From a virus, in the IMG/VR virus record IMGVR_UViG_3300045988_088194: a stretch of DNA of 64,000 nt. One strand, given 5' to 3'. Both the position numbers and the translations under genes were made by a program. Positions 1,094 to 35,167 of the stretch are shown in pieces (position 1 is the stretch's first letter; the number at the start of each line of letters is the position of its first letter). The notes under the pieces are model-generated. The model did not search any database, was not told the origin of the DNA, and saw only the letters and a list, made by a program, of their open reading frames with translations.

Positions 1094-1188
1094 AAAGGGC
1101 TATTGCTGAATAGTGGAGTTACTTCACTGATAATGAAATAAGTTTTTGGGTACTTAATTATACTCCACAAACTGTTGCATAGCCCTTT
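1094..1188 (+). ncRNA. long hairpin carrying the AGTTACTTC element (copy 1, permuted R-X-L form); possibly also the terminator of the upstream gene
   Basis: Outer stem AAAGGGCTAT/ATAGCCCTTT and inner stem GTGGAGT/ACTCCAC. ACTTC lies at 1121-1125, then a 29-nt apical segment, then TAATTAT. A T-run follows. The stems covary with the copy at 7467-7559. Confidence 0.5.
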
Positions 1189-3555: not shown

Positions 3556-4965
3556 ATGTCTAAGTTGAATCCAACCATTAAGCCAACATCTAAATTTACA
3601 GATGAAAGACTTGCTGGAGGTAGTGGTGCTCTTGCTGCTAAGCAGTCAAACATTGCTCTCCTTAAAAGACTCACCTTGGCTAATCTTCTTTGGGAAGATG
3701 CTGCCTATTGTGATGGCAAGAAGATTGCTGAAGAGATTGAAAGGCTCATACCTCTGTGTAGTGCAGAAGATGTATATACTGTTGCTTTGGCAGCAAGAAC
3801 TCTACAGAAACTCAGGCACACACCTTTGTTTCTGGCATCTGAAATGTGCAAATACCCTGAACACAGGCTATTTGTAAGAGACTTACTGCCAAAGATTATA
3901 ACAAGGGCAGATATGCTGACTGACTTCCTCTCTATATACTGGAAAGAAGAAAAGAAGCCACTGGCTAATCAGGCAAAGAAAGGACTTGCAGCAGCATTTC
4001 ATAACTTCAATGCTTATAAGTTTGCAAAGTATGACAGAGATGCTGCAATAAAACTCAGAGATGTAATGTTTCTTGTTCACCCAAGACCTTGTGATGAAAA
4101 GGAAGCAGAACTCTTCAAGATGATTGCTTCAAGAACTCTTCCTGTACCTGAAACTTGGGAAACAATGCTCTCTGCTGGTAAAGATAAAAAAGAAACCTGG
4201 ACTAAACTTATCACTGAAGATAAGATTGGAGGTTTAGCTTTCTTGAGAAATCTTAAAAACATGAGGGAAGCTGGTGTAGACAAGAAAGTAATAAAATATG
4301 GCTTTGAAAGTCTTAAGGCTTCAATGCTGTTGCCTATGAATTTCTTGCAAGCAGCCAGAATGAATCCTGAGTTTGAGAGGGATATAGAAGATGCTATGAT
4401 AACTTCATGGTCCAATCTTCCTAAAATCCCTGGTAGGACTCTGTTCATACTTGATGCTTCTGGTTCTATGGAGTGGGCTGAAATCTCAAAAAAGTCCAAA
4501 CTCACAAGGTTTGATGCTGCAAAGGCTATGGCTATGCTTGCTGCAAACCAGTGTGAAGACTTTGAGTTGGTGGTAACTGCTGGTGATGACTATGCCAGAA
4601 AGCATAAATCAGAAGTAATCAAATATCCTTCAAAGGGATTCAACCTTCTAAAGCAGATAGATGAAGCAAAGAAGAGGGTTGGAGGTGGAGGAATCTTCAC
4701 AAGACAATGTCTTGAGTGGTCAAGAGAACAGTTTACTGGAGAGTTTGACAGAATAATCATATTCTCAGACTCACAGGACTGTGACTACCCTGAGAAGAGA
4801 GTTCCAAAGCCTTTTGGAAAACACAACTACATCTGTGATGTATCATCTGAACTGCATGGTGTGAACTATAGGGGTGCTTGGGATGCTGAAATAAGTGGCT
4901 TCTCAGAGCATTTCCTAACTTTCATAGCAGCATATGAAGGTATTGAGAATACTTTTAATGAATGA
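3556..4965 (+). CDS. TROVE (Ro60/Rsr-like) domain protein with C-terminal vWA domain
   Basis: N-terminal AGGSGA...LFLASE...ITRADMLTDF...AYKFAKYDRDAAIKLRDVMFLVHPRP matches the TROVE pattern (..yqlaKY...lRDvlrl.HPkP). The C-terminus has a vWA MIDAS motif, LFILDASGSM, then VVTAGDD and IIIFSDSQD. Confidence 0.75.
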   Translation: MSKLNPTIKPTSKFTDERLAGGSGALAAKQSNIALLKRLTLANLLWEDAAYCDGKKIAEEIERLIPLCSAEDVYTVALAARTLQKLRHTPLFLASEMCKYPEHRLFVRDLLPKIITRADMLTDFLSIYWKEEKKPLANQAKKGLAAAFHNFNAYKFAKYDRDAAIKLRDVMFLVHPRPCDEKEAELFKMIASRTLPVPETWETMLSAGKDKKETWTKLITEDKIGGLAFLRNLKNMREAGVDKKVIKYGFESLKASMLLPMNFLQAARMNPEFERDIEDAMITSWSNLPKIPGRTLFILDASGSMEWAEISKKSKLTRFDAAKAMAMLAANQCEDFELVVTAGDDYARKHKSEVIKYPSKGFNLLKQIDEAKKRVGGGGIFTRQCLEWSREQFTGEFDRIIIFSDSQDCDYPEKRVPKPFGKHNYICDVSSELHGVNYRGAWDAEISGFSEHFLTFIAAYEGIENTFNE

Positions 4966-5207
4966 GACAGACAATAGGAAACATTCAGGGATATGATGTA
5001 ATCTATGTCCCTGAGAAAAGAATCCTATTCTGTAAGAACACTGCTGTTCCTTATGACCTTCTTAAGGAGGCTGTCTATGGTGACATGGACAGGTATGACA
5101 TACCTCAAAAGAATCTGGTCATAAGGAAGAGTGGTGAAATTATAGAGTTTGGATGCTTGACAACAACTATAGAAAAGGCCAAGAGCATATTGGCAAGTGT
5201 TTATTAA
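4962..5207 (+). CDS. hypothetical protein
   Basis: ORF overlapping the upstream stop by 4 nt (ATGA). No motif recognised. Confidence 0.5.
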   Translation: MRQTIGNIQGYDVIYVPEKRILFCKNTAVPYDLLKEAVYGDMDRYDIPQKNLVIRKSGEIIEFGCLTTTIEKAKSILASVY

Positions 5208-5219
5208 GAAAAAAAAACA

Positions 5220-6608
5220 ATGGAACAAACAATTATCCAGAGCACAAAGGATGTGCTTAAGAAGAAAGTAAACTTCTTTGAACAGCAACAGAAAGAGCGT
5301 ATTATCACAGCCTGTAAGTCAGACATGAAGTATGCAGAAGTTCTGGCATTCATCAAAAATGAGATAGAAATGTCTGAACAGGATGTATCACTAAACTACA
5401 ACATCAAATGTTGGAAGACTGATGGTGCATTCCAGTTTAACAAGGCTGTTGAAGAGATATTTGGCTCAGTAAAGGCTGAGAAAGATGCAGGTCCTTCAGG
5501 CTCTGGTAATATCAATACTCTTGATGTTGTCCTTGCTGATGGCTCAAGAACAAAAGTACCTTTTGGTAAGATTTCATTGCCTGAACTTGGTGAGAATTCC
5601 TATATAGAGCTGAACTACTCTAATAGTGCTTCAGAACTGGTTATAACAGGAGTATGCAAATCCAAGTATCAGTCCATGATTGATGATATTGTGGACAGGA
5701 CAAGGGAGCTCATTGCTATAAACTCTATCTACAAGAATCAAGCTCTTGAGATAACAGAGAAAGGCAAAGAGCCTAAGAGACTCAATCTCAGCCATATAGA
5801 TGGTCAGTTGATGGTCTTGTCAAAACAGACAGAGTTTGACCTTCAGCCTTTGAGGTCAAGAATCCTGTATCCTGAGAAATGTCTCAAGGCAGGCATTCCC
5901 CTTAAGTATGGATGTCTGTTTGAAGGGAAATATGGTACTGGAAAGACTCTTCTTGCATTTAAACTTGCAAGAGAGGCTACCAAGAACAACTGGACTTTCA
6001 TCTATCTTAAGAATCCTTCTCTTCTTGCAGAGACCTTGAGGATGGTGAAAATCATAGACAGGTCATGCAATGGAGTGATAGTCTTTGTAGAGGACATTGA
6101 CCAGGTTACAAGAGGGGAGAGGGATGCATCTCTTCAGGATATTCTGAACACTCTTGATGGTGGTGATACCAAAGATATGAATGTCATTACTTTGTTCACC
6201 ACCAACCACATAGAACTTATTGAACCTACATTCCTCAGAGGAAAGAGAATTGGTTCAGTGGTTACTATGGACTGTCTTGATAAGGAGACAGCATTGAGGT
6301 TCATCAAAGAGTCCTTCAAAGATGGATATGAGATTGGTGAACTTAAAGAGTCCCTTGACCTCATAGAGGAGATGGAGATAGCACCTGCATTCATGGCAGA
6401 GATAGTTGAATCTATCAAGAGTAAACTTATCTTTGCAGAGACCAACCTTGTAACTGATGATATTCTCAAAGGTGCTGTCAAGGCTTATAACAGACAGGTA
6501 AACCTCTCAAGAAAGAAGGATATGAGCATGACTCCTGAGAAGGAGTTCTACCAGAGTATGCAAACTATAATGGCTGAAGGAATCAAGCAGGTTCTTAGAG
6601 GCAAATAG
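5220..6608 (+). CDS. AAA+ ATPase (classical AAA family)
   Basis: Walker A GKYGTGKTLL, Walker B VIVFVEDIDQV, sensor-1 LFTTNH and a second region of homology, PTFLRGKRIG. Confidence 0.85.
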   Translation: MEQTIIQSTKDVLKKKVNFFEQQQKERIITACKSDMKYAEVLAFIKNEIEMSEQDVSLNYNIKCWKTDGAFQFNKAVEEIFGSVKAEKDAGPSGSGNINTLDVVLADGSRTKVPFGKISLPELGENSYIELNYSNSASELVITGVCKSKYQSMIDDIVDRTRELIAINSIYKNQALEITEKGKEPKRLNLSHIDGQLMVLSKQTEFDLQPLRSRILYPEKCLKAGIPLKYGCLFEGKYGTGKTLLAFKLAREATKNNWTFIYLKNPSLLAETLRMVKIIDRSCNGVIVFVEDIDQVTRGERDASLQDILNTLDGGDTKDMNVITLFTTNHIELIEPTFLRGKRIGSVVTMDCLDKETALRFIKESFKDGYEIGELKESLDLIEEMEIAPAFMAEIVESIKSKLIFAETNLVTDDILKGAVKAYNRQVNLSRKKDMSMTPEKEFYQSMQTIMAEGIKQVLRGK

Positions 6609-6618: not shown

Positions 6619-6888
6619 ATGAAAATACAGGTCAGTCCAAAAGCATCTGAGTGGATATTGAAGCAGCCTTGGCTATCTCAGTTTGTAGATAACTGTGTAG
6701 CAATTAAGACCCCCCCAGATATGATACTTGCCTATCTTCTTGGTACGGAGTCATACAGCACGATTTTTAGTGCTTTCACCTGGAGTAGTACTCCTGAAGG
6801 TGGAGATTTCTGGAGCAAGATTGATGATGAGATATCAGAGGTTAGTGAGGAGGAAAACTGGGATGATATTACCACTATAGAGATATAG
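6619..6888 (+). CDS. hypothetical acidic protein
   Basis: ORF preceded by GGGGGGTTACT. No motif recognised. Confidence 0.5.
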   Translation: MKIQVSPKASEWILKQPWLSQFVDNCVAIKTPPDMILAYLLGTESYSTIFSAFTWSSTPEGGDFWSKIDDEISEVSEEENWDDITTIEI

Positions 6889-6892
6889 TGAA

Positions 6893-6913
6893 AGAGGCAG
6901 CAAGTCTGCCTCT
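6893..6913 (+). other. 8-bp hairpin between the CDS and the tRNA array (terminator or processing stem?)
   Basis: AGAGGCAG-CAAGT-CTGCCTCT. No T-run follows. Confidence 0.35.
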
Positions 6914-6917
6914 ATAT

Positions 6918-7002
6918 GCAGGGATGGCAGAATGGATTATGCACCAGTCTTCTAAACTGGGTTCTGAATGGAACAATGTGAGTTCGAGTCTCACTCCCTG
7001 TA
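6918..7002 (+). tRNA. type-II (long variable arm) tRNA with anticodon TCT; CCA encoded at 7003-7005
   Basis: - Acceptor: GCAGGGA/TCCCTGT (G1-U72).
- D stem: 3 bp, GCA/TGC.
- Anticodon arm: CCAGT-CTTCTAA-ACTGG.
- Variable arm: 17 nt, GTTC-TGAATG-GAAC-AAT.
- T arm: GTGAG-TTCGAGT-CTCAC.
- Discriminator: A73. Confidence 0.7.
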
Positions 7003-7069
7003 CCAAATAAATTCCTTTTTTGGGGGATGAATATGGACAGGTCTGCTGTGAAGTAAACTTGTTCATTAC

Positions 7070-7143
7070 ACTCACATAGCTCAACTGGTCAGAGCAGGAC
7101 TCTTATACAGTCAAGGTTGGGGGTTCAAGTCCCTCTGTGAGTA
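7070..7143 (+). tRNA. tRNA-Ile (anticodon TAT)
   Basis: Acceptor ACTCACA/TGTGAGT, D arm GCTC-AACTGGTCA-GAGC, anticodon arm GGACT-CTTATAC-AGTCA (one G-A mismatch), T arm GGGGG-TTCAAGT-CCCTC. Confidence 0.85.
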
Positions 7144-7223
7144 CTAAAGAAAGAACAGATGGAAAAGTTAAAGGAATATCTTTGGAATGAGTGGAGATAT
7201 AATAATGCTCCTAAATTCCTCAA

Positions 7224-7270
7224 ATACTTTGAAGAGTAGTTTGAAAACCTCACAGATTTGCAGATACTTC
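7224..7270 (+). repeat. degenerate copy of the AGTTACTTC element
   Basis: ATACTTTGAAGAGTAGTTTG...GCAGATACTTC aligns with TTACTTCTGAAGAGATAGTGTT...GAGAGTTACTTC in the tRNA-Met insert. Confidence 0.3.
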
Positions 7271-7321
7271 AGTATACTGCATAATGGAAGGATACAAGAC
7301 CATTTTATAAGACAACATAAA

Positions 7322-7458
7322 GCATTACATAGTGCGGGGTAGAGTTACTTCAGATTAGATAAATGGTTATATCATAAGATTGTGGTTCTTAAATTTGTTG
7401 GTTCGAGTCCAGCATCTGGCTATAAACACTCTATCAATTATTCTTGTAATGCTTTTTT
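7322..7458 (+). ncRNA. long stem structure (permuted R-X-L element, copy 2) enclosing the tRNA-His-like module
   Basis: Outer stem GCATTAC (7322-7328) / GTAATGC (7446-7452) followed by TTTTTT. Inner stem GGTAGAGT (7338-7345) / ACTCTATC (7428-7435). ACTTC lies at 7347-7351 and TATAAAC at 7421-7427. Confidence 0.5.
7349..7421 (+). tRNA. tRNA-His-like (anticodon GTG), atypical acceptor end
   Basis: D arm GATA-AATGGTTA-TATC, anticodon arm TAAGA-TTGTGGT-TCTTA (perfect) and T arm GTTGG-TTCGAGT-CCAGC. The acceptor TTCAGAT/ATCTGGC has a T1-C72 mismatch and a T2-G71 wobble. There is no G-1/C73. Confidence 0.65.
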
Positions 7459-7466
7459 GAAATATA

Positions 7467-7559
7467 GACACTATTGTTGGTATTTAGAGTTACTTCATCC
7501 ATGATTTAAATTATTGCAAATAACTTTTAACAGAACTCTAAAGATTGTTACATAGTGTC
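7467..7559 (+). ncRNA. long hairpin carrying the AGTTACTTC element (copy 3, permuted R-X-L form)
   Basis: Outer stem GACACTAT/ATAGTGTC, a G-U-rich middle helix and a perfect 9-bp inner stem, TTTAGAGTT (7483-7491) / AACTCTAAA (7534-7542). ACTTC lies at 7492-7496, then a 31-nt apical segment, then TAACAG. Confidence 0.5.
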
Positions 7560-7571
7560 TTCAATATAAAC

Positions 7572-7696
7572 TTCCCTGTAGCTCAATTGGTAGAGCATGT
7601 ATAGAACTGTGAAGAATGTTCCCTAATTGTGGTGATGTTTACAGTTACTTCAGATTTGTAATCTCAGGGTTCTTGGTTCAAGTCCAAGCAGGGAAG
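7572..7696 (+). tRNA. tRNA-Thr (anticodon TGT) interrupted by a 52-nt intervening sequence
   Basis: Acceptor TTCCCTG/CAGGGAA, D arm GCTC-AATTGGTA-GAGC and T arm CTTGG-TTCAAGT-CCAAG. Removing 7600-7651 gives the anticodon arm TGAGA-TTTGTAA-TCTCA and a 73-nt canonical tRNA. Confidence 0.75.
7600..7651 (+). other. 52-nt intervening sequence in tRNA-Thr (between positions 28 and 29)
   Basis: TATAG-[AACTGTGAA]-24 nt-[TTTACAGTT]-ACTTC, a 9-bp hairpin. Homologous to 8810-8864. Confidence 0.65.
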
Positions 7697-7741
7697 TTTT
7701 TTAATAGAAACCTTAATACTATTATATATAATAATGGAGGA

Positions 7742-7840
7742 ATGATTATGATTCAGGTTTTTAGGGCACTGGCAGTGGCTTCTTTGGTATTAGCACTGGT
7801 GTTTATTATCTTTATATCGTCTGGCACGGATGATGATTGA
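7742..7840 (+). CDS. small hydrophobic protein (32 aa)
   Basis: Track ORF 7616..7840 trimmed to ATG 7742, which follows GGAGGA. The upstream part of the track ORF overlaps tRNA-Thr. Single TM-like segment. Confidence 0.4.
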   Translation: MIMIQVFRALAVASLVLALVFIIFISSGTDDD

Positions 7841-7889
7841 CTGGGGTGAACCTGTTGAAATTAAATAACTATGAAAACAATTGAAAATC

Positions 7890-8177
7890 ATGACTAACAA
7901 GGAAATTATAAAGTTTTTGAAAGAATATCCATTGGACAGGTATATTATTCTTACAACACTGTTAGAGGATGATACAATTTCAATTGCAGAACTTGTCAAG
8001 CACAAGGAGGACTCCCTTAAGAAAGTAGTAGGGGAAAAGACAGAAGAATTAGCAAATGCATGTGCACTTATTATAAGGTATAAGGATAAAATAAATACCA
8101 ATACCGTTGAAGCTGATGCACAGAATTTTTTAGAGAATTGCAGCTGCACTGCATTTACTGGATATGGCACTAAATAA
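7890..8177 (+). CDS. hypothetical protein
   Basis: The track ORF starts at TTG 7881. The first ATG is at 7890. No motif recognised. Confidence 0.55.
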   Translation: MTNKEIIKFLKEYPLDRYIILTTLLEDDTISIAELVKHKEDSLKKVVGEKTEELANACALIIRYKDKINTNTVEADAQNFLENCSCTAFTGYGTK

Positions 8178-8194
8178 GTGCAGAAAATTATATT

Positions 8195-8371
8195 ATGATG
8201 ACAGTAAAAAATCTTATTGATGAACTTAAAAAGTTTCCTGAAGATGCAGATGTCCTTATGACTGAGTTGAAACATACAAATGGATATCATAGACTCAAGT
8301 ATATTGGAGGAATGAAGGTACAGGACCCTTCAAATGGTTCTGAATCAACCTGTCCAGTTCTTGTGTTTTAG
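8195..8371 (+). CDS. hypothetical protein (58 aa)
   Basis: Hand-translated ORF below the track cutoff: MMTVKNLIDELKKFPEDADVLMTELKHTNGYHRLKYIGGMKVQDPSNGSESTCPVLVF. Confidence 0.5.
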   Translation: MMTVKNLIDELKKFPEDADVLMTELKHTNGYHRLKYIGGMKVQDPSNGSESTCPVLVF

Positions 8372-8377
8372 TGGAAT

Positions 8378-8785
8378 GGGGGTGTTTTGGTTTTGATTAC
8401 ACTCTATTTGGTAGTACCTTATGCAGTAGATGGGCAGTCTACTATAAAAGAGCCCAAAACAATTAAATGCTAACAAAGTTAGAAAATCAGTTAGAAGCCT
8501 TGTAGATTATATTAAATCTGCTATGCAGGCACCAGCAATTTCAGCTTATGCTGTTGCTGCCTAACAAAAGGCTTTAGTATTTGAGCCTTAATCAAGTACT
8601 TGGTGGAAGATGGGTGGATACCCAAATATGACTGCATGGCCTTGTAATTAGCAGAGGAAGAAGGAGTCAAGGGACGGTTTAATGGGACAGATTTCCATCT
8701 ATAGTAATAATCTGTCATCCTAAGCATATAAATAAAGGTATTATTGAAGGTTTGTAAGACACAGGTTCGAGTCCTGTCACCTCCA
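8378..8785 (+). ncRNA. ssrA: tmRNA (transfer-messenger RNA)
   Basis: - 5' end: GGGGGTGTTTTGGTTTTGA.
- 3' end: ACAGG-TTCGAGT-CCTGT-CACCTCC-A.
- Together these form a tRNA-Ala-like acceptor with G3-U70.
- CCTAAGCATATA box near the 3' domain.
- Internal tag frame: GCT ATG CAG GCA CCA GCA ATT TCA GCT TAT GCT GTT GCT GCC TAA (8520-8564), ending ..AYAVAA. Confidence 0.85.
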
Positions 8786-8794
8786 CTAATAAAT

Positions 8795-8922
8795 GGGGAA
8801 GTAGCATAATAAAAAACTCTTAAGCTTTTACTTCTGAAGAGATAGTGTTATTGAGAGTTACTTCAGGTTAATGCATTAGTTTCATAAGCTAAAGATTGTT
8901 TGTTCAAATCAAACCTTCCCCA
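8795..8922 (+). tRNA. tRNA-Met/Ile2-type (anticodon CAT) interrupted by a 55-nt intervening sequence in the D-loop; CCA encoded at 8923-8925
   Basis: Acceptor GGGGAAG/CTTCCCC, D stem GCAT (8804-8807) / ATGC (8871-8874) separated by 63 nt, anticodon arm TTAGT-TTCATAA-GCTAA and T arm GTTTG-TTCAAAT-CAAAC. Confidence 0.75.
8810..8864 (+). other. 55-nt intervening sequence in the tRNA-Met D-loop
   Basis: TAAAA-[AACTCTTAA]-27 nt-[TTGAGAGTT]-ACTTC. Removal leaves the D-loop AAAGGTTA. Boundaries were set by alignment with 7600-7651. Confidence 0.6.
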
Positions 8923-8958
8923 CCATAGAACAAGGCAGTAATAATAATAAGGGTGCTG

Positions 8959-8990
8959 ACCAGGTTCTCAAGGACACTTCAAAATAAGGT
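8959..8990 (+). terminator. rho-independent terminator after the RNA gene array
   Basis: AAGGACAC-loop-GTGTCCTT followed by TTTATTT. Confidence 0.7.
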
Positions 8991-9026
8991 GTCCTTTTTA
9001 TTTGTAAATCATTAAAATCTTATATT

Positions 9027-9410
9027 ATGATAGAGTATAAAGTTATAACTTGGAACTTCAGTACTGACAGAGTAGAGCATTATGATATAATGCCTTATCT
9101 GTACAGAAGACTTGAAGAGAAAAGAAAGAGGAAGCAGATAGCATTGAAAGACCTCACTTTGGAAAGGTTGAAGGAGTTCATTGATACTGAATCAAAGTAT
9201 CAGTTCTGGGCAAGATGCCAGTATGAAGTGATACTTTCTTCATGGCCTCCAAGAGAGAATGGACATAAGCATAAGATGGATGTATATGAACAGATTCATA
9301 TGAATCTTGACAATATAGCCAAACTTATGTATGATGACCTTCAGAAAGGAAAGTCTGCAAGAGCAACTAAGACTAGCAAGCACATAAGAGTTAAAACTTT
9401 AGATAGTTAA
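9027..9410 (+). CDS. hypothetical protein
   Basis: ORF. No motif recognised. Confidence 0.55.
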   Translation: MIEYKVITWNFSTDRVEHYDIMPYLYRRLEEKRKRKQIALKDLTLERLKEFIDTESKYQFWARCQYEVILSSWPPRENGHKHKMDVYEQIHMNLDNIAKLMYDDLQKGKSARATKTSKHIRVKTLDS

Positions 9411-11148: not shown

Positions 11149-12306
11149 ATGGAAATAAAGATTGTATTGGGGCTTCTCTTTGGAGATGAAGGTAAGGGTA
11201 ACACAGTTCAGTGGCTCTGCAAGAAAGCCTTGGAAGAAGGTAAAAGACCTTGTGTAGTGCGTTTTTCAGGAGGTCCTCAGGCAGGACATACTGTAAGGCA
11301 TAATGGTATTACACATGTATGTTCTTCCTATGGCTCTGGTGTTCTTCTTGGAGTTCCTACACTGTATGTAGGAGGTCTTATTGACCCTCTATGTATATGG
11401 AATGAGAAGAAATCATTAGAAGAGAAAGGAGTGACGGTACCTCCTATCTATATAGGTGGAGAGGTTCCCCTGATAACTCCTTATGATGTAGCAGACCAAC
11501 TTGAGTGGTCTAAAGACCACCCTAACAGAACTTGTGGAAAGGGAGTAATGTCTGCTGTCTTGAGACAGAAAACCCGTCTAAGAGATAGATGTGCAGAGGC
11601 AGCAGACTTTTCTTCAAAGTCTTTTATTGAATATAAGTTAGAGCATATAAGAAAATTCTATGCTGAAGAAGGAATAACTGCTGACAAAGAGGTTGTCAAA
11701 GATTGGACAAAGGCAGGGTTGAACCTATGTAAGGACTTCTTCAAGTACAATATAGAGGATTTTGATGTTCTTATCTTTGAGGGAACTCAAGGACTTCTGT
11801 TAGATTCTGAATGTGGATTCTATCCTTATGTAACTTCAACTAAGGTAGGGCTCAATGGTGTCCCTAAAGAGTATCTTAAAGGTGCTGAAATATACCTTGT
11901 AACAAGGACTTATCTTACAAGACATGGAGAGATGGGACCACTTGAGAGGCAGTGGTTTGAGGGGAGAGAGAAGGAAGTACCTACTGATAAGTTAGAGACT
12001 AATGTCTTCAATGAACATCAGGGAGAGTTCCTTACTGCAAAGTATTATCCAGAACCTTACAAATATGCTGTACAAAGGCACTGTCTTGACAACATGCAGA
12101 AGAGGTATAACCTCACGATGAATCTTGTAGTTACTCATACTGATGTAGACTATTCTGAAGCTGGTGTATGTTTCCCTAAAGGAGACTGCTCTTTCTTTAT
12201 AAATAGTATATCAGGAACTCTTAAAGAGTTTCTTGTTCTACAGAACATTTATACCTCAGATAATCCTAACTCAAACTTTGAACTGTATGACACAAGAATT
12301 AACTGA
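11149..12306 (+). CDS. adenylosuccinate synthetase family protein (PurA/PurZ-like)
   Basis: N-terminal P-loop LLFGDEGKGNTVQW and the RFSGGPQAGHT motif are PurA-family signatures. At 385 aa it is shorter than typical bacterial PurA. Confidence 0.75.
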   Translation: MEIKIVLGLLFGDEGKGNTVQWLCKKALEEGKRPCVVRFSGGPQAGHTVRHNGITHVCSSYGSGVLLGVPTLYVGGLIDPLCIWNEKKSLEEKGVTVPPIYIGGEVPLITPYDVADQLEWSKDHPNRTCGKGVMSAVLRQKTRLRDRCAEAADFSSKSFIEYKLEHIRKFYAEEGITADKEVVKDWTKAGLNLCKDFFKYNIEDFDVLIFEGTQGLLLDSECGFYPYVTSTKVGLNGVPKEYLKGAEIYLVTRTYLTRHGEMGPLERQWFEGREKEVPTDKLETNVFNEHQGEFLTAKYYPEPYKYAVQRHCLDNMQKRYNLTMNLVVTHTDVDYSEAGVCFPKGDCSFFINSISGTLKEFLVLQNIYTSDNPNSNFELYDTRIN

Positions 12307-19176: not shown

Positions 19177-20352
19177 ATGAATATGACAGATGAACAGAAA
19201 AAAGAATGGGAAAATCTGTATGACAGCCTGATGGAGAAACCAAGAAGAATCCTTGAAATATTCAGTGATTATTTTGGAGAAGATAAAGTGGATATGCAAG
19301 GATTCCGCACTAAGGAGGACTTCTGTAAAAATAAATCATTAGGGAAGGGTAATACAGATGCTATATTACTCCCAAGTGGTATATTTATACTTGTATGGTT
19401 TCCTCAAGTGAGAGTCACTAATGAGTATAACAGGTCTGTAGATATACAGGACCTTTATGCTAAAGTGAAGATTGATACAGAGGGACAACTCATAGGAAAG
19501 TTCTATCTCAATAGAGCTACTTATCCATTAAGTCATATGAGGGCTGGATATATGCATTCCCATATTCCAGGAATAAATACCCGTGACTTCTCAGACTTTC
19601 TTACACCTTGTACTGGAAGTGGACCCATCAATGCTACTATTGGAGGTCTTAACAGGGAGTTTGATGAAGATATGTGGCAGTTATTCTGTAGTGAACTTGA
19701 AGACTTTACTCAAGTAGAGTCAGTTGTAGGGGTTCCTTATAGAAGACTTGAGAATATAGGTGCCAGCCAGTCTTGTAGTGTGACACAGAAGTTCTTTTAT
19801 GTAGTCAGAGGATTTTATGGAAAGGTAGCAAGACCTCCATATGAATCAAGGAGTGTAGACCTTGGAATCATACCAGATTTTACAAGATACCTACTTAAGA
19901 ATGTCTCTCTTCCTATGGAATACTCAAATGGAACATACTGTCTTGGAATGTCTTATTATGATGCTACCATCTTGATTAGTAATAAGTTCATAGAATGGTT
20001 CAATCTTGAAGACAATCCATATAGGAGATTGTATGATTTTCAGTATTTGAAGAACAGGAGAATCCTTGGAGAGTATATAGTAGTTGATGGTAAAATCTAT
20101 ACTATTGGGGATGCTGAAAGTATCAATAGTTATAGGGACTATGAGGGTAAATTTGTATGTAAATTCAAAGGAAAAGAAATTAGATTACATATAGATAATG
20201 GTCTTTCCTCTGAACAGTATCCAGCTACCCTATTGGAAGAAAATGTTTTAAAGGATATAGTATCAGCTATCTGTAAAGTTGTAAATTTAAGATATGGAAG
20301 AAAAGAAGGAGAAGAAGAGTCTGAGCTTGATAGACAGACATTCTATGTATAA
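19177..20352 (+). CDS. hypothetical protein, possible E2/UBC-like fold
   Basis: A helix, then four predicted strands, then MHSHIPGI...(15 aa)...TPCTGSG. This resembles the HPN-flap plus catalytic Cys layout of E2 enzymes. Weak evidence. Confidence 0.3.
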   Translation: MNMTDEQKKEWENLYDSLMEKPRRILEIFSDYFGEDKVDMQGFRTKEDFCKNKSLGKGNTDAILLPSGIFILVWFPQVRVTNEYNRSVDIQDLYAKVKIDTEGQLIGKFYLNRATYPLSHMRAGYMHSHIPGINTRDFSDFLTPCTGSGPINATIGGLNREFDEDMWQLFCSELEDFTQVESVVGVPYRRLENIGASQSCSVTQKFFYVVRGFYGKVARPPYESRSVDLGIIPDFTRYLLKNVSLPMEYSNGTYCLGMSYYDATILISNKFIEWFNLEDNPYRRLYDFQYLKNRRILGEYIVVDGKIYTIGDAESINSYRDYEGKFVCKFKGKEIRLHIDNGLSSEQYPATLLEENVLKDIVSAICKVVNLRYGRKEGEEESELDRQTFYV

Positions 20353-21439
20353 ACTTATAATACCTGATTCAGTTCAGAGAAAGATAAGGGAGTGGTGTTA
20401 TCATTTCCCTACCAAAGAGTGGTCTGGAACACTGTTCTATACAGTAGAGGGTTCTTTTGAGGATGGTTCTTTGGTTATTACCTGTAAGGATATTTATGTA
20501 TCTGACATAGGTTCTGCTACCTATACAGAGTTTGACCATAGTGCTGATATTGTTACTTATCAGGCAATGAATGACCTGCTTGACTGCTATACGGGACTTA
20601 TCCACTCACATAACCAAATGGCAACATTCTTCAGTGGAACAGATAGAAACACTCTTATAGAGGAAGGTATGGATATGCCTCATTTCCTCTCTCTTATAGT
20701 GAATAATGCAGGTGTATATACTGCCAAGATTACCAGAAGGGTGAGTCTTCAGACCTCTAAGATAACCTATCCTACCTTTGGTGGAGAAAGTAAGTCTGAG
20801 GAAGTGGAATCTACTGTCAATGAATATCTTGAGGCATTTCCTCTTGAGATAGATGTACAGGAAGATACATCTATCAGGGATGAGGTTGCTCAGAGAATCA
20901 AAGAGATAGAAGCAGAGAAGACCGCTGTAAGAAGAACTAACTTTCTTTCTTATACCAAGAAGGAAGATGCACCCTTTAAAAGAGAAGAGGAAGTATCATT
21001 TACTAAGGAGTTCCCCTCACAGAGAACACCAGTACAGCCAACATTGTTCCCTGCTGACAGAATATCCCCTTCAGAAACAGATGGGAGTTGGGTCAATATT
21101 GAAGTCCCTCAAGAGTTGGCTCAGAAACTACTTGTACAGTTAGTAACTGGCTCTATCACAACTGGTTATAGTGACAAGTTTGATATAGAGAAGTGGTGTT
21201 CATCTATGATGGAGAAGGCTTTCCTCAGAAGGTTCCCTAACCCTCAGGACCTTGAGAACTGGCTTGACCTCTATACAGAGTTCCTTACATGGTACACTTG
21301 CTGGAAGGAAGTTGAAGATGAGGATTGTGATGTGATAGCCCAGGCTGTGGCAGCTAAATTGCTTAGTATGTGTGAGCAATTACCTGATAACAAGATACTT
21401 GATGTTATCAAGTCTAAACTTGAGGAGATAATGGCATGA
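20345..21439 (+). CDS. JAB/MPN (JAMM) metalloprotease domain protein
   Basis: EWSGTLFY...HSHNQMATFFSGTD matches the JAMM motif E...HxH-x7-S-xx-D. Track ORF trimmed to ATG 20345, which overlaps the upstream stop. Confidence 0.75.
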   Translation: MYKLIIPDSVQRKIREWCYHFPTKEWSGTLFYTVEGSFEDGSLVITCKDIYVSDIGSATYTEFDHSADIVTYQAMNDLLDCYTGLIHSHNQMATFFSGTDRNTLIEEGMDMPHFLSLIVNNAGVYTAKITRRVSLQTSKITYPTFGGESKSEEVESTVNEYLEAFPLEIDVQEDTSIRDEVAQRIKEIEAEKTAVRRTNFLSYTKKEDAPFKREEEVSFTKEFPSQRTPVQPTLFPADRISPSETDGSWVNIEVPQELAQKLLVQLVTGSITTGYSDKFDIEKWCSSMMEKAFLRRFPNPQDLENWLDLYTEFLTWYTCWKEVEDEDCDVIAQAVAAKLLSMCEQLPDNKILDVIKSKLEEIMA

Positions 21440-22395
21440 CACAGAATATACAACAGGCTGTACAACAGGATATAGCACTTAGACTGACTGAGGCAATTAA
21501 TGGTCTTGTAGACCAGGTCAGTGTTGAGCATACTGGGGCTGCTGTTTCAGAGAATACTTCTGAAGAGATAGAAGAGCAGGCTGCATATCCGGAGTATCCA
21601 AGTATAAGCAGTGAAACTACTGTTCCTGAGCAGGCTCATGATAGGATTCCTACCAACTCTGAGACTATTACCATTGACATGAGCACTTCAAGGTTTAGTG
21701 GTGCAGTGTGGTATAATAAAGTGCAGGAGAAGACAATCACTCTTGCAGGTTTGGGTGGTATAGGTTCTTATGTGGCTTTCCTTCTCTCAAGAATGAAGCC
21801 TAATCACATAAGACTCTATGATGATGATACTGTAGAATTGGCAAATATGTCAGGGCAGTTCTACAGTGTTCTTGACATCAACAAGACTAAGGCTCAAGCC
21901 ATGACTGACATGATGCACAATTACAGTAATTATTGTTCCATAACCTCTGTCAATGAGAGGTTCACAACAGATTCCCCTGCTACTGACATCATGATTTGTG
22001 GATTTGACAATATGACTGCCAGAAGGATATTCTACAGTGTATGGAAACACCATGTGATGAGTATACCTGAAGAACTAAGAAAGCATTGCCTGTTCATAGA
22101 TGGAAGGCTTGCAGCAGAGGAGTTTCAGGTTCTGTGTATACAGGGTGGTGACAGTTATAATATGAAGAGGTATGAGAAAGACTGGCTGTTCTCAGATGAT
22201 GAGGCTGATGCCACACTCTGTAGTTATAAGCAGACAACCTTCATGGCTAATATGATTGGCTCTATCATGACTAATCTCTTTGTGAACTTTTGTGCCAATG
22301 ACCTTGAAGGTGATGAAAAGCCTATGATAGATAGGAGTCTTCCATTCCTTACATCATATGATGCTTCTTTGATGATGTTTACTACGGAGGCTTGA
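21436..22395 (+). CDS. ThiF/MoeB/E1-like adenylyltransferase
   Basis: Rossmann motif TLAGLGGIGSYVAFLL followed by IRLYDDDTVELANMSGQFY, matching the E1 pattern GxGGxG...D.D.V..sNl.RQ. Confidence 0.75.
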   Translation: MTQNIQQAVQQDIALRLTEAINGLVDQVSVEHTGAAVSENTSEEIEEQAAYPEYPSISSETTVPEQAHDRIPTNSETITIDMSTSRFSGAVWYNKVQEKTITLAGLGGIGSYVAFLLSRMKPNHIRLYDDDTVELANMSGQFYSVLDINKTKAQAMTDMMHNYSNYCSITSVNERFTTDSPATDIMICGFDNMTARRIFYSVWKHHVMSIPEELRKHCLFIDGRLAAEEFQVLCIQGGDSYNMKRYEKDWLFSDDEADATLCSYKQTTFMANMIGSIMTNLFVNFCANDLEGDEKPMIDRSLPFLTSYDASLMMFTTEA

Positions 22396-25764: not shown

Positions 25765-26550
25765 ATGAGTAAAAAATTAGGAATAAAAATTGATGAAATT
25801 GTTACTTTATATAATCAAGGTAACACTCCAGCACAAATAGCAGAGAGATACGGATGTTGTACTTCTAATATAACAAGAAGGCTTAAAAAAGTAGGAATAG
25901 AGTTTAAAAGAGACTACTTAAAAACTCGTCACAATAGAAATGGTAGACACAAAATAGATACAGATTTCTTTAAATGTATAAATACAGAAGAGAAAGCTTA
26001 TTTTTTAGGTATTATGTATTCTGATGGAAGTGTATCTGATAATCAATTCTATTTAAAACTTAAAGATGAGGATGTTGTAGTTAAATTTAAAAAGGCTTTA
26101 AAGTGTGATTATCCAATAATACATAATGAAAGTCCTTATTATAACTATATTTTACAAGTAAGTAGTAAAGAAATGTGTAGAGATTTAATAAATTTAGGTT
26201 GCTATAAAAATAAAACTAGAATTATTAAATTTCCAGATATTGACCCTTCTTTATTTAAGCATTTTATTAGAGGATTCTTTGATGGTGATGGTTGTGTAAG
26301 AGTTGGTAAAACTAAAGGAACTTGTATGTTTGATATAACATCTGCTTCTTACACTTTTATAATGCAGTTAAAAACCATTTTAACACCTATAGCTTATCAT
26401 ATAGGTATATCTAAAGAATCTAAATATGATGTATGGCATCTTAGGTGTGGAGGAAAGCAAGTACAACAAATTTTAGATTGGTTATATGAAGGTAGCACAG
26501 TCTATATGCAAAGAAAATATTTTAAATATCAATTATTAAGTTCGCTTTAA
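25765..26550 (+). CDS. LAGLIDADG homing endonuclease (double-motif) with N-terminal HTH
   Basis: Two LAGLIDADG motifs, YFLGIMYSDGSV and FIRGFFDGDGCV. N-terminal HTH-like TPAQIAERYGCCTSNITRRL. Confidence 0.85.
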   Translation: MSKKLGIKIDEIVTLYNQGNTPAQIAERYGCCTSNITRRLKKVGIEFKRDYLKTRHNRNGRHKIDTDFFKCINTEEKAYFLGIMYSDGSVSDNQFYLKLKDEDVVVKFKKALKCDYPIIHNESPYYNYILQVSSKEMCRDLINLGCYKNKTRIIKFPDIDPSLFKHFIRGFFDGDGCVRVGKTKGTCMFDITSASYTFIMQLKTILTPIAYHIGISKESKYDVWHLRCGGKQVQQILDWLYEGSTVYMQRKYFKYQLLSSL

Positions 26551-33714: not shown

Positions 33715-34017
33715 ATGAATGAAACGAGCAATGCTATAATTGATAATATACTCAGCCAGTATACAAAGCCAATAGAAGAAGTTCTCCATGGTTGGATTAT
33801 TCTTATAGATGGTCAGGTATGGAAATCTCCTGCAAGAGGTTTTATATTTAACTCAAGGAAACAGGCAGTTGCTGCTTTTTATAATGGGATGAGGTGGAGA
33901 GTAACAAGCTCTATGGGAAGAGCTGAAGGCAATGACCACTATTGGAGTGACACTTCAATGTATTGGGCAAGGTTTAAGGAAGCCTTGAAAGATAGAATGG
34001 AAATAAGACAGATTTAA
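33715..34017 (+). CDS. hypothetical protein
   Basis: ORF with an A-rich leader. No motif recognised. Confidence 0.55.
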   Translation: MNETSNAIIDNILSQYTKPIEEVLHGWIILIDGQVWKSPARGFIFNSRKQAVAAFYNGMRWRVTSSMGRAEGNDHYWSDTSMYWARFKEALKDRMEIRQI

Positions 34018-34982: not shown

Positions 34983-35167
34983 AGCAGTGGACATCAAGAG
35001 AGTTTCTAAGGATGCTTAGAAAGAATGGATATACTTACAGCAGACATAATGGGGACCATCATATCTATGTAAGTGAGGGAGGAAGGCATATATCTGTACC
35101 TCAGAAACTTGAGTGTGTCATTGCAAGAAGACTAATTAAAGAATATAATTTGAATATTGAACTATGA
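34979..35167 (+). CDS. hicA: HicA-like mRNA interferase (toxin-type RNase)
   Basis: The 62-aa sequence TSREFLRMLRKNGYTYSRHNGDHHIYV..GRHISVPQK...ARRLIKEYNL matches the HicA/YcfA pattern, including the G(S/D)HH motif. Confidence 0.7.
   Translation: MKQWTSREFLRMLRKNGYTYSRHNGDHHIYVSEGGRHISVPQKLECVIARRLIKEYNLNIEL

What the first reader, a model, noticed from the sequence alone, without database searches (positions are those of the whole stretch)
8795..8925. tRNA-Met(CAU) gene split in the D-loop by a homologous 55-nt intervening sequence
**What is seen**
- Every arm is canonical, with the CCA end encoded.
- The two D-stem strands, GCAT and ATGC, are 63 nt apart.
- The insert aligns end to end with the tRNA-Thr insert: TAAAA-[AACTCTTAA]-loop-[TTGAGAGTT]-ACTTC versus TATAG-[AACTGTGAA]-loop-[TTTACAGTT]-ACTTC.
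- The helix shows compensatory changes between the two copies (C:G versus G:C, and U-G versus G-U).
- Removing 8810-8864 leaves the 8-nt D-loop AAAGGTTA. The His gene here has AATGGTTA and the Lys gene has AATTGGTTA.

**Why it matters**
The same element sits at different tRNA positions, 28/29 in Thr and the D-loop in Met. That argues for a mobile or structure-recognised element rather than a position-specific intron.
Basis: seen in the sequence. Interest (0 to 1): 0.8.

Follow-up and report, generated by a model that had tools for sequence, protein, structure and literature searches.

The report
Ro60-binding Y RNA module inside tRNA
The 55-base "insert" in this phage tRNA-Met-like gene is most likely not an intron but the binding handle of a Y RNA, the partner RNA of the Ro60 protein encoded 4 kb upstream. 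The locus is therefore probably a new tRNA-shaped kind of Y RNA in crAss-like gut phages.

Summary
Deleting 8810-8864 gives a canonical tRNA-Met(CAU), and deleting the homologous 52 nt at 7600-7651 gives tRNA-Thr(UGU).

The insert is one of five copies in the window of a structured module. Each copy has a covarying helix followed by the invariant GUUACUUC, usually preceded by a (U)RGYG block. The other three copies are two stand-alone hairpins and a stem that encloses the tRNA-His-like gene.

The module is tied to the phage Ro60/TROVE gene (3556-4965):
- The two-block motif occurs 86 times in 39 Ro60-encoding phage loci. Every copy is on the Ro60 strand and most lie within 1 kb of the gene.
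- It never occurs in 625 kb of Ro60-less relatives.
- In distant phages the same block reads GGCGAAG-N6-GUUACUUC and leads into the permuted tRNA-like domain of YrlA. Rfam's YrlA model aligns full length there, and the published YrlA host, mycobacteriophage ET08, has GUUACCUC.
- A covariance model built only from other phages finds the Met insert at E=4e-6.

The best reading is a YrlA-family Y RNA whose Ro60-binding stem is grafted into the D-loop of a native-order tRNA body. That is a new topology. Whether the insert is ever excised remains untested.

The parts
8795..8809 (+). 5' part of the tRNA-shaped body: acceptor 5' strand GGGGAAG, U8 A9, D-stem 5' strand GCAT, A14 A15
   Evidence: Read directly from the sequence. 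ARAGORN calls the tRNA once the insert is removed.
8810..8814 (+). Single-stranded A-rich linker (TAAAA), variable in length among alleles
   Evidence: Alignment of 10 alleles shows 5-9 A.
8815..8823 (+). Module helix, b strand (AACTCTTAA). It corresponds to the 3' strand of the Y RNA stem.
   Evidence: Pairs with 8851-8859. Covariation across paralogues and across phages. Matched by covariance model R1.
8824..8850 (+). Distal part of the module. It includes the TAGTG block (8843-8847), the degenerate counterpart of the GNCGAAG / GGUG Ro60-site motif, placed 9 nt before GUUACUUC.
   Evidence: Two-block motif hit at 8844. Family consensus. Rfam YrlA alignment of a distant homologue.
8851..8859 (+). 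Module helix, a strand (TTGAGAGTT). It corresponds to the 5' strand of the Y RNA stem.
8857..8864 (+). Invariant GTTACTTC block. It contains the YUAY of YrlA and overlaps the end of the a strand.
   Evidence: Invariant in all alleles. Present next to Ro60 genes in 32 of 39 loci. The published YrlA host phage ET08 has GUUACCUC.
8865..8925 (+). 3' part of the tRNA-shaped body: rest of the D-loop with G18 G19, D-stem 3' strand, anticodon arm (loop UUCAUAA), variable loop, T arm, acceptor 3' strand, A73, and an encoded CCA that is not conserved
   Evidence: Partial Rfam tRNA match of 23.5 bits.
7572..7697 (+). Sister chimera: a tRNA-Thr(UGU)-shaped RNA with the homologous 52-nt module (7600-7651) inserted between positions 28 and 29 of the anticodon stem
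   Evidence: Rfam tRNA 42 bits across the insert. R1 46.7 bits, E=1e-7.
7319..7455 (+). Module in open topology. The stem strands (AAAGCATTACA...TAGTG...GTAGAGTTACTTC and ACTCTA...TGTAATGCTTT) enclose a tRNA-His-like domain (7349-7421) that lacks G-1/C73 and has a mispaired 1:72.
   Evidence: Inverted repeats I7 and I3. Fold. Two-block motif at 7331. His comparison.
7466..7560 (+). Stand-alone module hairpin without a tRNA-like domain (YrlB-like): AGACACTAT / TTTAGAGTT-ACTTCA ... AACTCTAAA / ATAGTGTCT
   Evidence: Nested perfect 9-nt inverted repeats I15 and I16. Fold.
1094..1188 (+). Stand-alone module hairpin: AAAGGGCTAT ... GTGGAGTTACTTCA ... ACTCCAC ... ATAGCCCTTT
   Evidence: Fold z = -2.7. 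nhmmer hit.
3556..4965 (+). Ro60 orthologue (TROVE + vWA), the presumed protein partner of the modules
   Evidence: Pfam TROVE 7e-14. PHROG 850. Full-length match to the solved Thermus phage phiLo Ro60, 9KOP/9L5Y, E=3e-15. Present only in the clade that has the modules.

Best explanation
The 55-nt insert is a Y RNA-type, Ro60-binding stem-loop of the YrlA family, grafted into the D-loop (between nucleotides 15 and 16) of an otherwise native-order tRNA body. The locus therefore encodes a Y RNA whose effector domain is a tRNA-Met-shaped fold. It is not a broken tRNA gene waiting to be spliced.

Proposed working:
1. The RNA is made from the early, Ro60-containing operon that ends at the terminator at 8970-8996.
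2. Its ends are matured like a tRNA, by RNase P and 3' trimming or CCA addition.
3. The projecting stem-loop, through its conserved 5'-strand blocks UAGUG-N9-GUUACUUC, binds the phage Ro60 ring.
4. The tRNA-shaped body recruits or mimics a substrate for host tRNA-binding or RNA-decay factors, as proposed for YrlA and for RYPER-type Ro60/Y RNA/PNPase complexes.

Shown here: the motif, its covarying helix, its homology to Ro60-adjacent modules of other phages, and its exclusive genomic linkage to Ro60.

Inferred: Ro60 binding, retention of the insert in the mature RNA, and the role of the tRNA body.
For: 1. **Family in the window.** There are five copies of helix + GUUACUUC, in three topologies. 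The helix covaries: covariation score 0.45 against 0.11 in shuffles, reached by 0 of 500 shuffles. Across phages it is 0.62 against 0.19, with 54 doubly changed cells.
2. **Linkage to Ro60.**
 - The Ro60 gene is present in 9 of 9 clade loci and in none of the other relatives that share the neighbouring AAA gene.
 - The motif [AGT]G[CT]G-N8-10-G[CT]TACTTC has 86 hits in 39 Ro60 loci. All are on the Ro60 strand and most lie within 1 kb of the gene. There are 0 hits in 625 kb of Ro60-less loci.
3. **Identity with YrlA.**
 - Distant copies read GGCGAAG-N6-GUUACUUC, then V loop, T arm, closed acceptor hairpin, D arm, ending in ...UGUUCC. This matches the published YrlA description: GNCGAAN0-1G, YUAY, only the 5' strand conserved, and location within 4 kb of Ro60 on the same strand (PMC4201824 and bioRxiv 10.1101/312249).
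 - Rfam RF02553 YrlA aligns full length to L218 7833-7959 (37 bits, E=1e-6).
 - It also matches the ET08 element, which carries GUUACCUC.
4. **Independent homology test.** Covariance model R1 was built from 12 modules of other phages. In the window it finds the Thr insert (46.7 bits, E=1e-7) and the Met insert (38.8 bits, E=4e-6) as its top hits. It finds nothing in the Ro60-less controls.
5. **Signs of a mimic rather than a decoder.** Homologous chimeras in crAss001-like phages keep the body but have loops UGG, AGG, GAU, GUA or GGU, loops of 8-9 nt, or 3-5-nt mini-hairpins. In L209 and L210 the module replaces the anticodon arm altogether.
6. **No sign of a splicing system.**
 - There is no insert-less allele.
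 - The 5' linker is hypervariable.
 - There is no bulge-helix-bulge motif and no group I or ribozyme core.
Against: - In this clade both chimeras have perfectly canonical 7-nt anticodon loops (U33, A37). The CAU anticodon is invariant in 10 alleles. Nearly all Thr exon substitutions avoid the stems. These features also fit functional tRNAs.
- An insert in the anticodon stem (Thr) should be incompatible with decoding unless it is removed.
- The phage encodes an RNA heal-and-seal set, kinase-like, Rnl2-type RNA ligase and two phosphoesterases at 34019-36670, which could join exons.
- The window copies lack the literal CGAA motif.
- The Met insert lacks a clear UGUUC block and scores weakly with a sequence-only profile (E=0.29).
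- Rfam YrlA never reaches its gathering score (37 bits against 69).
- Ro60 binding is not tested.
Confidence: 0.72

Rival explanations
1. It is a genuine tRNA-Met gene with a protein-dependent intervening sequence. An endonuclease cuts after ...GUUACUUC. The 5' fragment is cut or trimmed back to the tRNA body, possibly by Ro60-recruited 3'-5' exonucleases. The phage kinase, phosphoesterase and Rnl2-type ligase then seal the nick, giving a decoding tRNA. The Y-like module serves as the processing handle.
For: - Precise deletion gives canonical tRNAs.
- Anticodon loops are canonical and conserved in this clade, and the stems are under purifying selection.
- An RNA ligase, two phosphoesterases and a kinase-like ORF are encoded at 34019-36670.
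- The invariant 3' junction combined with a sloppy 5' linker would suit a 'one cut plus exonuclease trimming' scheme.
- Thr(UGU) and Met(CAU) are part of the usual tRNA set of related phages.
Against: - No endonuclease candidate was found.
- There is no bulge-helix-bulge motif.
- The 5' site has no conserved sequence or fixed distance: the Thr linker is 5 or 10 nt.
- The same module occurs where nothing needs splicing, in the stand-alone hairpins and in canonical YrlA.
- Homologous chimeras in sister phages have non-decoding loops.
- The ligase cassette is a common phage tRNA-repair and replication-module feature.
Confidence: 0.17
2. It is a small mobile, MITE-like element that has inserted into and inactivated tRNA genes, making them pseudogenes.
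For: There are several copies in a 9-kb region, at different positions in different tRNAs. The same tRNA array is invaded by a mobile group I-type intron in one relative (L124).
Against: - No presence/absence polymorphism was seen in 18 alleles.
- There are no target duplications and no conserved terminal repeats.
- The helix changes by compensatory substitutions and uses G-U pairs that work on one strand only, so selection acts at the RNA level.
- The chimeras are conserved across phages with 65-70% Ro60 identity, and even 41%.
- The tRNA stems stay intact.
Confidence: 0.03
3. The conserved UAGUG-N9-GUUACUUC(A/G) is a phage-specific promoter or a punctuation site for an RNase in the polycistronic tRNA transcript. 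It happens to lie inside two tRNA genes.
For: There are five same-strand copies confined to the early region. A purine always follows the motif. Some copies lie just before or after tRNAs.
Against: - The 6-9 nt before the motif always have a covarying complementary partner, including G-U pairs. A DNA promoter would not need this.
- The motif follows Ro60 genes across unrelated phage groups with different transcription systems.
- It aligns to the stem of YrlA.
Confidence: 0.04
4. The insert is a new small self-cleaving ribozyme that cuts at its own 3' end.
For: The interior of the insert and the 3' block are strongly conserved, while the flanking linker is free to vary.
Against: - No known ribozyme family matches, even at E<=10.
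- Only the Met copy has a hammerhead-like CUGANGA.
- The HDV-like topology cannot be drawn.
- The conservation is fully accounted for by the YrlA/Ro60 motifs.
Confidence: 0.02

Closest known systems
YrlA-class bacterial and phage Y RNAs (Chen et al. 2014, PMC4201824; Rfam RF02553; structure 6CU1)
   Same: - Encoded near a Ro60/TROVE gene on the same strand, in several paralogues, some with and some without a tRNA-like domain.
- A stem in which only the 5' strand is conserved: the GNCGAAG-type block, then about 14 nt on, YUAY within GUUACUUC.
- The 3' strand carries UGU(U/C)C.
- The effector domain mimics tRNA, with D and T arms.
   Different: - In canonical YrlA the RNA ends lie in the Ro60 stem. 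The tRNA-like domain is circularly permuted (T arm, closed acceptor hairpin, D arm) and has no anticodon loop.
- Here the gene order is that of a real tRNA with free acceptor ends. The Ro60 stem is an internal, closed hairpin in the D-loop (Met) or the anticodon stem (Thr), and a full anticodon arm is kept.
- The CGAA core has degenerated to UAGUG or GUGGUG.
- The Rfam gathering score is not reached.
M. smegmatis YrlA after RNase P cleavage and CCA addition (PMC4201824)
   Same: A Y RNA that ends up with a tRNA-like free acceptor end while still carrying the Ro60-binding stem.
   Different: In M. smegmatis this state arises by cleaving the closed acceptor hairpin, which gives a two-piece RNA. 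Here it is encoded directly, as one piece.
Thermus phage phiLo Ro60 with Yrl1 and Yrl2 (PMC12135203; PDB 9KOP, 9L5Y)
   Same: A phage-encoded Ro60 with neighbouring Y-like hairpins. The window protein matches this structure's sequence over its full length (E=3e-15).
   Different: The phiLo Yrl RNAs are simple stem-bulge-stem hairpins with CGAA. No tRNA bodies are reported.
Archaeal and red-algal tRNA introns at non-canonical positions (bulge-helix-bulge, EndA or Sen endonuclease)
   Same: A short hairpin-forming insert at the D-loop or anticodon stem. The same motif is used both inside tRNAs and in leader-trailer stems.
   Different: - There is no 3-4-3 bulge-helix-bulge.
- Only one junction is conserved.
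- The hosts are bacterial.
- No EndA homologue was seen.
Group I introns in tRNA anticodon loops (present in relative L124 tRNA-Leu(UAA))
   Same: They interrupt phage tRNA genes in the same array.
   Different: They are 200-700 nt ribozymes, often with a homing-endonuclease ORF. They sit in the anticodon loop and are polymorphic for presence. The 55-nt module has none of these traits.
Theta (HDV-like) ribozymes next to gut-phage tRNAs (PMC10879173)
   Same: Small structured RNAs associated with tRNAs of gut phages.
   Different: They have a nested double-pseudoknot fold and cleave at their own 5' end. That topology cannot be drawn on the insert, and Rfam gives no match.

Membership tests
YrlA-type Y RNA | Encoded close to (published: within 4 kb of) a Ro60/TROVE gene, on the same strand | tested here: met
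   - Ro60 lies at 3556-4965 on the + strand. The Met chimera starts 3.8 kb downstream on the same strand.
- In 39 other Ro60 loci all 86 motif copies are on the Ro60 strand, mostly within 1 kb of the gene.
- There are none in the Ro60-less relatives.
YrlA-type Y RNA | GNCGAAN0-1G motif on the 5' strand of the stem (the presumed Ro60 site) | tested here: inconclusive
   - The window has no CGAA anywhere in 6880-9030. The Met copy has AUAGUG and the Thr copy has GUGGUG at the equivalent place, 9 nt before GUUACUUC.
- Homologous modules in other phages grade from GGCGAAG through GGUGAAG to UAGUG at the same spacing.
YrlA-type Y RNA | Conserved YUAY about 14 nt downstream of the first motif, at the top of the stem | tested here: met
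   - UUAC within the invariant GUUACUUC (8857-8864).
- ET08 YrlA has GUUACCUC.
- In the Rfam YrlA alignment, the consensus CUAc falls on this block in L218.
YrlA-type Y RNA | Base-paired stem in which the 5' strand is conserved and the pairing is maintained | tested here: met
   The helix 8815-8823 / 8851-8859 has 84-88% of cells paired and 6-7 pairs with compensatory change. None of 500 shuffles reached the observed covariation. The strands were registered by hand.
YrlA-type Y RNA | tRNA-like effector domain with D and T arms | tested here: met
   The full cloverleaf is recovered by ARAGORN after deleting the module. U8-A14, A15-U48 and G18 G19 can be read from the sequence.
YrlA-type Y RNA | Permuted order (T arm, closed acceptor hairpin, D arm), with the RNA termini in the Ro60 stem and no anticodon loop | tested here: not met
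   The window chimeras have native tRNA order, free acceptor ends, a closed Ro60 stem and an anticodon arm. This is the respect in which they are a new variant. The canonical order is present in distant relatives (L211, L218, L214, L220).
YrlA-type Y RNA | Reaches the Rfam RF02553 gathering score (69 bits) | tested here: not met
   There is no YrlA hit in the window at E<=5-10. Even the published ET08 element and L218 reach only 37 bits, so the model is too narrow to decide the question.
YrlA-type Y RNA | Binds Ro60 | not testable with these tools
   Needs EMSA or RIP with the protein encoded at 3556-4965, or with crAss001 gp96.
tRNA intron of the bulge-helix-bulge type | Two 3-nt bulges separated by a 4-bp helix at the two junctions | tested here: not met
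   The linkers UAAAA and ACUUC (Met), and UAUAG and ACUUC (Thr), form at most 1-2 isolated A-U pairs. This was read from the sequence and from the folds.
Group I intron in tRNA | Ribozyme core of at least ~200 nt, inserted in the anticodon loop | tested here: not met
   The insert is 55 nt and sits in the D-loop. Rfam gives no match.
Known small self-cleaving ribozymes (hammerhead, HDV-like/theta, twister, pistol, hairpin, hatchet) | Match to the family covariance model or to the conserved core | tested here: not met
   No such family appears at E<=10 in 8785-8935 or 7285-7710. The CUGANGA in the Met copy is absent from the Thr copy.
Canonical decoding tRNA-Met | Contiguous cloverleaf detectable by tRNA finders, with an anticodon identity that is stable among orthologues | tested here: inconclusive
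   - The locus is not detected unless the insert is removed.
- CAU is invariant within the clade.
- Homologous chimeras in sister phages carry UGG, AGG, GAU or GUA, or loops of odd length.

The most novel reading that the evidence does not exclude
The chimeras are real, chargeable tRNAs that carry a Ro60 handle. Either the phage Ro60 RNP escorts or protects aminoacylatable tRNA-Met and tRNA-Thr, linking Ro60 to synthetases, EF-Tu or the ribosome. Or the Y module is a new kind of tRNA intervening sequence, removed by Ro60-recruited exonucleases together with the phage kinase, phosphoesterase and Rnl2-type ligase. That would be a bacterial-virus tRNA splicing pathway with no relation to bulge-helix-bulge or group I introns.
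Probability: 0.15. Interest if true: 0.9.

Novelty: new variant of a known kind. Interest (0 to 1): 0.66.

Why it matters
- **What this family adds.** It shows that the Ro60-binding stem is a portable module. It can be plugged into a tRNA at the D-loop, the anticodon stem, the acceptor end, or in place of the anticodon arm. That argues the tRNA shape itself is the selected feature.
- **A testable system.** The family puts Y RNAs and Ro60 into crAss-like phages, the most abundant viruses of the human gut. These include the cultured phage crAss001, where the elements lie in an unannotated 900-nt gap next to the early TROVE gene and can be tested directly.
- **A practical warning.** tRNA finders miss these loci. 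Some Y RNA domains are annotated as tRNAs (Pro, Gln, Tyr, Ile, 'Pyl' calls in relatives), which distorts phage tRNA and recoding inventories.

Tried and rejected
1. **First IMG/VR scan.** A loose pattern for the hairpin returned only chance matches. It wasted a scan.
2. **Uninterrupted orthologues.** BLAST of all phage tRNAs in 55 related loci for split hits found inserts only in the window's own clade. A T-arm and acceptor scan with deletion scanning found other oddities (group I introns, tmRNAs, an 18-nt anticodon loop) but no further module-bearing tRNAs in the Ro60-less loci.
3. **Promoter reading.** Considered because of five same-strand copies and a purine after the motif. Rejected because of the covarying RNA helix and the cross-phylum Ro60 linkage. 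The sigma-70-like scan showed nothing at the copies.
4. **Known introns and ribozymes.** Bulge-helix-bulge, hammerhead, HDV-like/theta, pistol, hairpin and Cas6-like site readings were checked by hand and with Rfam at E<=10. None fits both the Met and the Thr copy.
5. **'Insert is a decayed duplicate of exon 1'.** This was suggested by TTCCCT...AATTG in the Thr insert and GAAG...TAGTG in the Met insert. Local alignment is not better than shuffles, p about 0.3.
6. **GAAGAGATA over-representation.** It is just Glu-Glu-Ile coding sequence.
7. **Search for an endonuclease.** Small ORFs were scanned with Pfam and PHROGs and nothing convincing turned up.
8. **Automatic alignment of the modules.** MAFFT followed by RNAalifold failed with ragged ends and gave 0 pairs. 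Trimming at the helix start fixed the register.
9. **Supplement of Chen et al. 2014.** It is not held in the library, so the published YrlA alignment could not be read. ET08 was re-examined directly instead.
Full report
**1. The observation**

The region 8795-8925 reads as follows:
- GGGGAAG TA GCAT AA, the 5' part of the tRNA body.
- A 55-nt insert, TAAAA-AACTCTTAA-...-TTGAGAGTT-ACTTC.
- AGGTTA ATGC A TTAGT TTCATAA GCTAA AGATT GTTTG TTCAAAT CAAAC CTTCCCC A CCA, the 3' part.

ARAGORN and Rfam at the gathering score find Lys, Arg, Ile and His tRNAs and a tmRNA. They find neither this locus nor the Thr locus. Deleting 8810-8864 gives a 76-nt tRNA-Met(cat). Deleting 7600-7651 gives tRNA-Thr(tgt). 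The unspliced RNA folds as a cloverleaf with a hairpin emerging from the D-loop (MFE -32.8 kcal/mol, z = -3.3). The pattern shared by the two inserts occurs only at these two places, with none expected by chance. The encoded CCA is not conserved in relatives.

**2. The insert belongs to a larger family in the window**

- The 10-mer (G)AGTTACTTCA occurs five times on the + strand, all in the first 9 kb: at 1117, 7343, 7488, 7643 and 8856.
- In every copy the 6-9 nt before TACTTC pair with a complementary stretch.
  - In the Met and Thr inserts the partner lies upstream.
  - In the other three copies it lies downstream. These are two stand-alone hairpins with nested perfect inverted repeats (1094-1188; 7466-7560) and a long stem that encloses the tRNA-His-like gene (7319-7455).
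- On a hand-registered two-strand alignment the helix covaries strongly. The covariation score is 0.45 against 0.11 in shuffles, reached by 0 of 500 shuffles, and slid controls stay at or below 0.15.
- G-U pairs are used, so the pairing works on the + strand RNA only.

**3. Alleles**

IMG/VR and the one metagenome scan gave 10 distinct Met alleles and 8 Thr alleles, all from human gut. Every one carries the insert.
- Changes in the tRNA body are compatible with the structure. For Thr, about nine variable sites are all in loops except one A-U to G-U change.
- Inside the inserts the 3' block ...GTTACTTC and the interior are invariant.
- The 5' linker is hypervariable: TATAG, TACAG, TGCAA, TGTAA or ATGTAAAAAG in Thr, and an A-run of 5-9 in Met.
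- There is no fixed 5' boundary and no bulge-helix-bulge. No known intron or ribozyme family matches, even at E<=10.

**4. The turn: Ro60**

- The ORF at 3556-4965 is a TROVE + vWA protein (Pfam 7e-14; PHROG 850). It matches the solved Ro60 of Thermus phage phiLo over its full length (E=3e-15).
- Among 62 related loci, the gene is present only in the narrow clade that has the modules.
- Fetching 43 viral loci through this protein (36-97% identity) showed GTTACTTC directly beside the Ro60 gene in almost all of them.
- The two-block motif [AGT]G[CT]G-N8-10-G[CT]TACTTC has 86 hits in 39 loci. All are on the Ro60 strand and nearly all lie within 1 kb of the gene. There are no hits in 625 kb of Ro60-less crAss-like loci.

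**5. Identity with YrlA**

- In the distant phages the block reads GGCGAAG, GGUGAAG or UAGUGAAG, then 6-9 nt of a covarying helix strand, then GUUACUUC. Next come a variable region, a T arm, a closed acceptor hairpin and a D arm. The element closes with the partner strand and UGUUCC.
- Rfam's YrlA model aligns end to end with one such element, L218 7833-7959 (37 bits, E=1e-6). That is below the gathering score.
- Mycobacteriophage ET08 is a published YrlA host. Three elements lie upstream of its Ro-like gp220. They read GCCGAGAG-UUUGUCG-GUUACCUC..., GGCCGAAGG-CUCGUCG-GUUAUCAAC... and similar, and they end in AUGUCU plus the basal strand. Rfam YrlA matches the middle one.
- GUUACUUC is therefore the YUAY block of YrlA. 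The window's UAGUG and GUGGUG are degenerate versions of the Ro60-site motif at the same spacing. The literal CGAA is absent from the window.

**6. Independent homology tests**

- A 25-nt profile trained only on phages with at most 60% Ro60 identity ranks the window's Thr, His, 1118 and Met copies as its four best hits in 128 kb. The Met hit alone is weak, E=0.29.
- Covariance model R1 was built from 12 closed-hairpin modules of crAss001-like phages and L209, none from the window's clade. With filters off, its top hits are the Thr insert (46.7 bits, E=1e-7), the Met insert 8815-8865 (38.8 bits, E=4e-6) and 7427-7497 (E=0.002).
- R1 finds nothing in the Ro60-less controls.
- Helix covariation across 22 modules from many phages is 0.62 against 0.19, with 54 doubly changed cells.

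**7. Topologies, and what they say about function**

The same module is joined to a tRNA body in four ways:
- Canonical YrlA, where the stem replaces the anticodon loop of a permuted body.
- Native order with the module replacing the anticodon arm (L209, L210).
- Native order with the module in the anticodon stem (window Thr; crAss001 L226 6090-6230).
- Native order with the module in the D-loop (window Met; crAss001 L226 6340-6480).

There is also a variant with the stem on the acceptor end (window His), and there are hairpins with no tRNA body at all.

Among homologous D-loop and anticodon-stem chimeras of sister phages, the body and the module are kept. The 'anticodon' loop wanders through UGG, AGG, GAU, GUA and GGU, through 8-9-nt loops, and down to 3-5-nt mini-hairpins. 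This is the behaviour of a tRNA mimic, not of a decoder.

The D-loop insertion sits between nucleotides 15 and 16, in the length-variable, outward-facing part of the loop. U8-A14, A15-U48 and G18 G19 are left intact, so an L-shaped fold with a projecting stem is plausible. That last point is inference.

In crAss001 the TROVE gene belongs to the early operon (PMC8375218). The elements sit in an unannotated 900-nt gap. No paper in the library links crAss-like phages to Y RNAs.

**8. What remains open**

- In this particular clade both chimeras have canonical, conserved anticodon loops.
- The phage encodes a kinase-like ORF, an Rnl2-type RNA ligase and two phosphoesterases.
- Excision of the module to give working tRNAs therefore cannot be excluded. 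I give it about 0.17. It would be a new kind of tRNA splicing.
- Mobile-element, promoter or RNase-site, and ribozyme readings are each unlikely, for the reasons given under the rival explanations.

**9. Verdict**

But the element is best explained as the Ro60-binding module of a YrlA-family Y RNA, built into a native-order tRNA body. That makes it a new topological variant of a known RNA class, in the most abundant group of human gut phages.

Caveats:
- The two-strand alignments were registered by hand.
- E-values from R1 are rough.
- The Rfam gathering score is not reached.
- Ro60 binding and the mature RNA form are untested.

Noticed in passing
window 8378-8788: A phage tmRNA (tag ANKVRKSVRSLVDYIKSAMQAPAISAYAVAA) ends 6-8 nt before the Met chimera. 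tmRNAs also lie beside the Ro60 and Y RNA cluster in many relatives (e.g. L189 6751-7156, L201 2437-2790, L191, L195, L197, L204). This suggests a conserved Ro60 / Y RNA / tmRNA / tRNA neighbourhood.
   Followed up: partly
window 7349-7421: The gene called tRNA-His(GTG) has U1-C72 and U2-G71 at the top of the acceptor stem, C at -1 and U73. Other phage tRNA-His genes in related loci have G-1:C73. Its first three bases are the TTC of the conserved GTTACTTC block, and it is enclosed by a Y RNA stem. It may be a tRNA-like domain rather than a working tRNA-His.
   Followed up: partly
window 34019-36670: A cluster of a nucleotide-kinase-like ORF (34019-34300), an RNA ligase (PF09414, 34269-34982) and two metallophosphoesterases (35406-35987, 35984-36670). 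This is an RNA heal-and-seal set of the kind phages use to repair cleaved tRNAs. ORFs 33715-34017 and 34019-34300 may be one kinase gene split by a frameshift.
   Followed up: partly
L124 7906-8700 (IMGVR_UViG_3300045988_082301): In this relative, tRNA-Leu(UAA) carries an insertion of about 690 nt in the anticodon loop, with an HNH-like ORF. It looks like a group I-type intron. The insertion is absent from the otherwise near-identical L123 and L125.
   Followed up: partly
L167 4365-4666: A class II tRNA-like gene with an insertion of about 215 nt in the anticodon loop, probably a group I intron.
   Followed up: no
window 6918-7005; L149 7674-7762; L128 2901-2984; L167 12501-12596: Class I tRNAs with long extra variable arms. 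Arg(TCT) is 88 nt in the window but 73 nt in L123. In relatives, Pro(TGG) is 89 nt, Thr(TGT) is 84 nt and Lys(TTT) is 96 nt. crAss-like phage tRNAs seem unusually tolerant of inserted arms.
   Followed up: partly
L128 about 11950-12030 (and about 20 sister loci): A tRNA-like gene (GCGGTTG...CAGCCGC) with an 18-nt 'anticodon' loop, AATTTTAGTATGCGCACA. ARAGORN does not call it, but it is conserved across the 63%-identity group.
   Followed up: no
L226 5810-6716 (Bacteroides phage crAss001, MH675552 about 95964-96870): The 900-nt gap downstream of the TROVE gene gp96 has no annotation. It holds two stand-alone Y-like hairpins and two tRNA-order chimeras.
   Followed up: yes
L189 9823-9896, L193 3074-3147, L195 9749-9823, L197 10065-10139, L202 2058-2134, L214 1978-2044, L221 5301-5370: ARAGORN calls 'tRNAs' (Pro, Gln, Tyr, Ile, Pyl/CTA) that start 6 nt before GTTACTTC. 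These are parts of Y RNA chimeras miscalled as tRNAs, and one of them is an apparent amber suppressor.
   Followed up: partly
window 25765-26550: An ORF with a LAGLIDADG homing-endonuclease domain and an N-terminal HTH, lying between unrelated genes. It may mark an intron or a free-standing homing endonuclease.
   Followed up: no
window 5220-6608 and 4962-5207: An AAA+ ATPase sits just downstream of the vWA-containing Ro60. AAA/vWA pairs of the MoxR type often work together. However, the ATPase is also present in relatives that lack Ro60.
   Followed up: no
window 11149-12306, 20294-22395: A PurA-like adenylosuccinate synthetase and a JAB/ThiF pair. Mycobacteriophage ET08, which also has Ro60 and YrlA, likewise encodes PurA-like, RNA ligase, polynucleotide kinase and ThyX genes.
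   Followed up: no
module consensus compared with human Y RNAs: Human Y1 and Y3 contain GGUAGUGAG / GCAGUGGUGUUUAC near the 5' end and UUGUUC(U/C) near the 3' end. Those fragments were confirmed from primer sequences in PMC13382184. They resemble the phage blocks UAGUG / GUGGUG and UGUUCC. A GUUAC in the Y1 and Y3 loops is recalled from memory only. This is a lead, not a test.
   Followed up: partly
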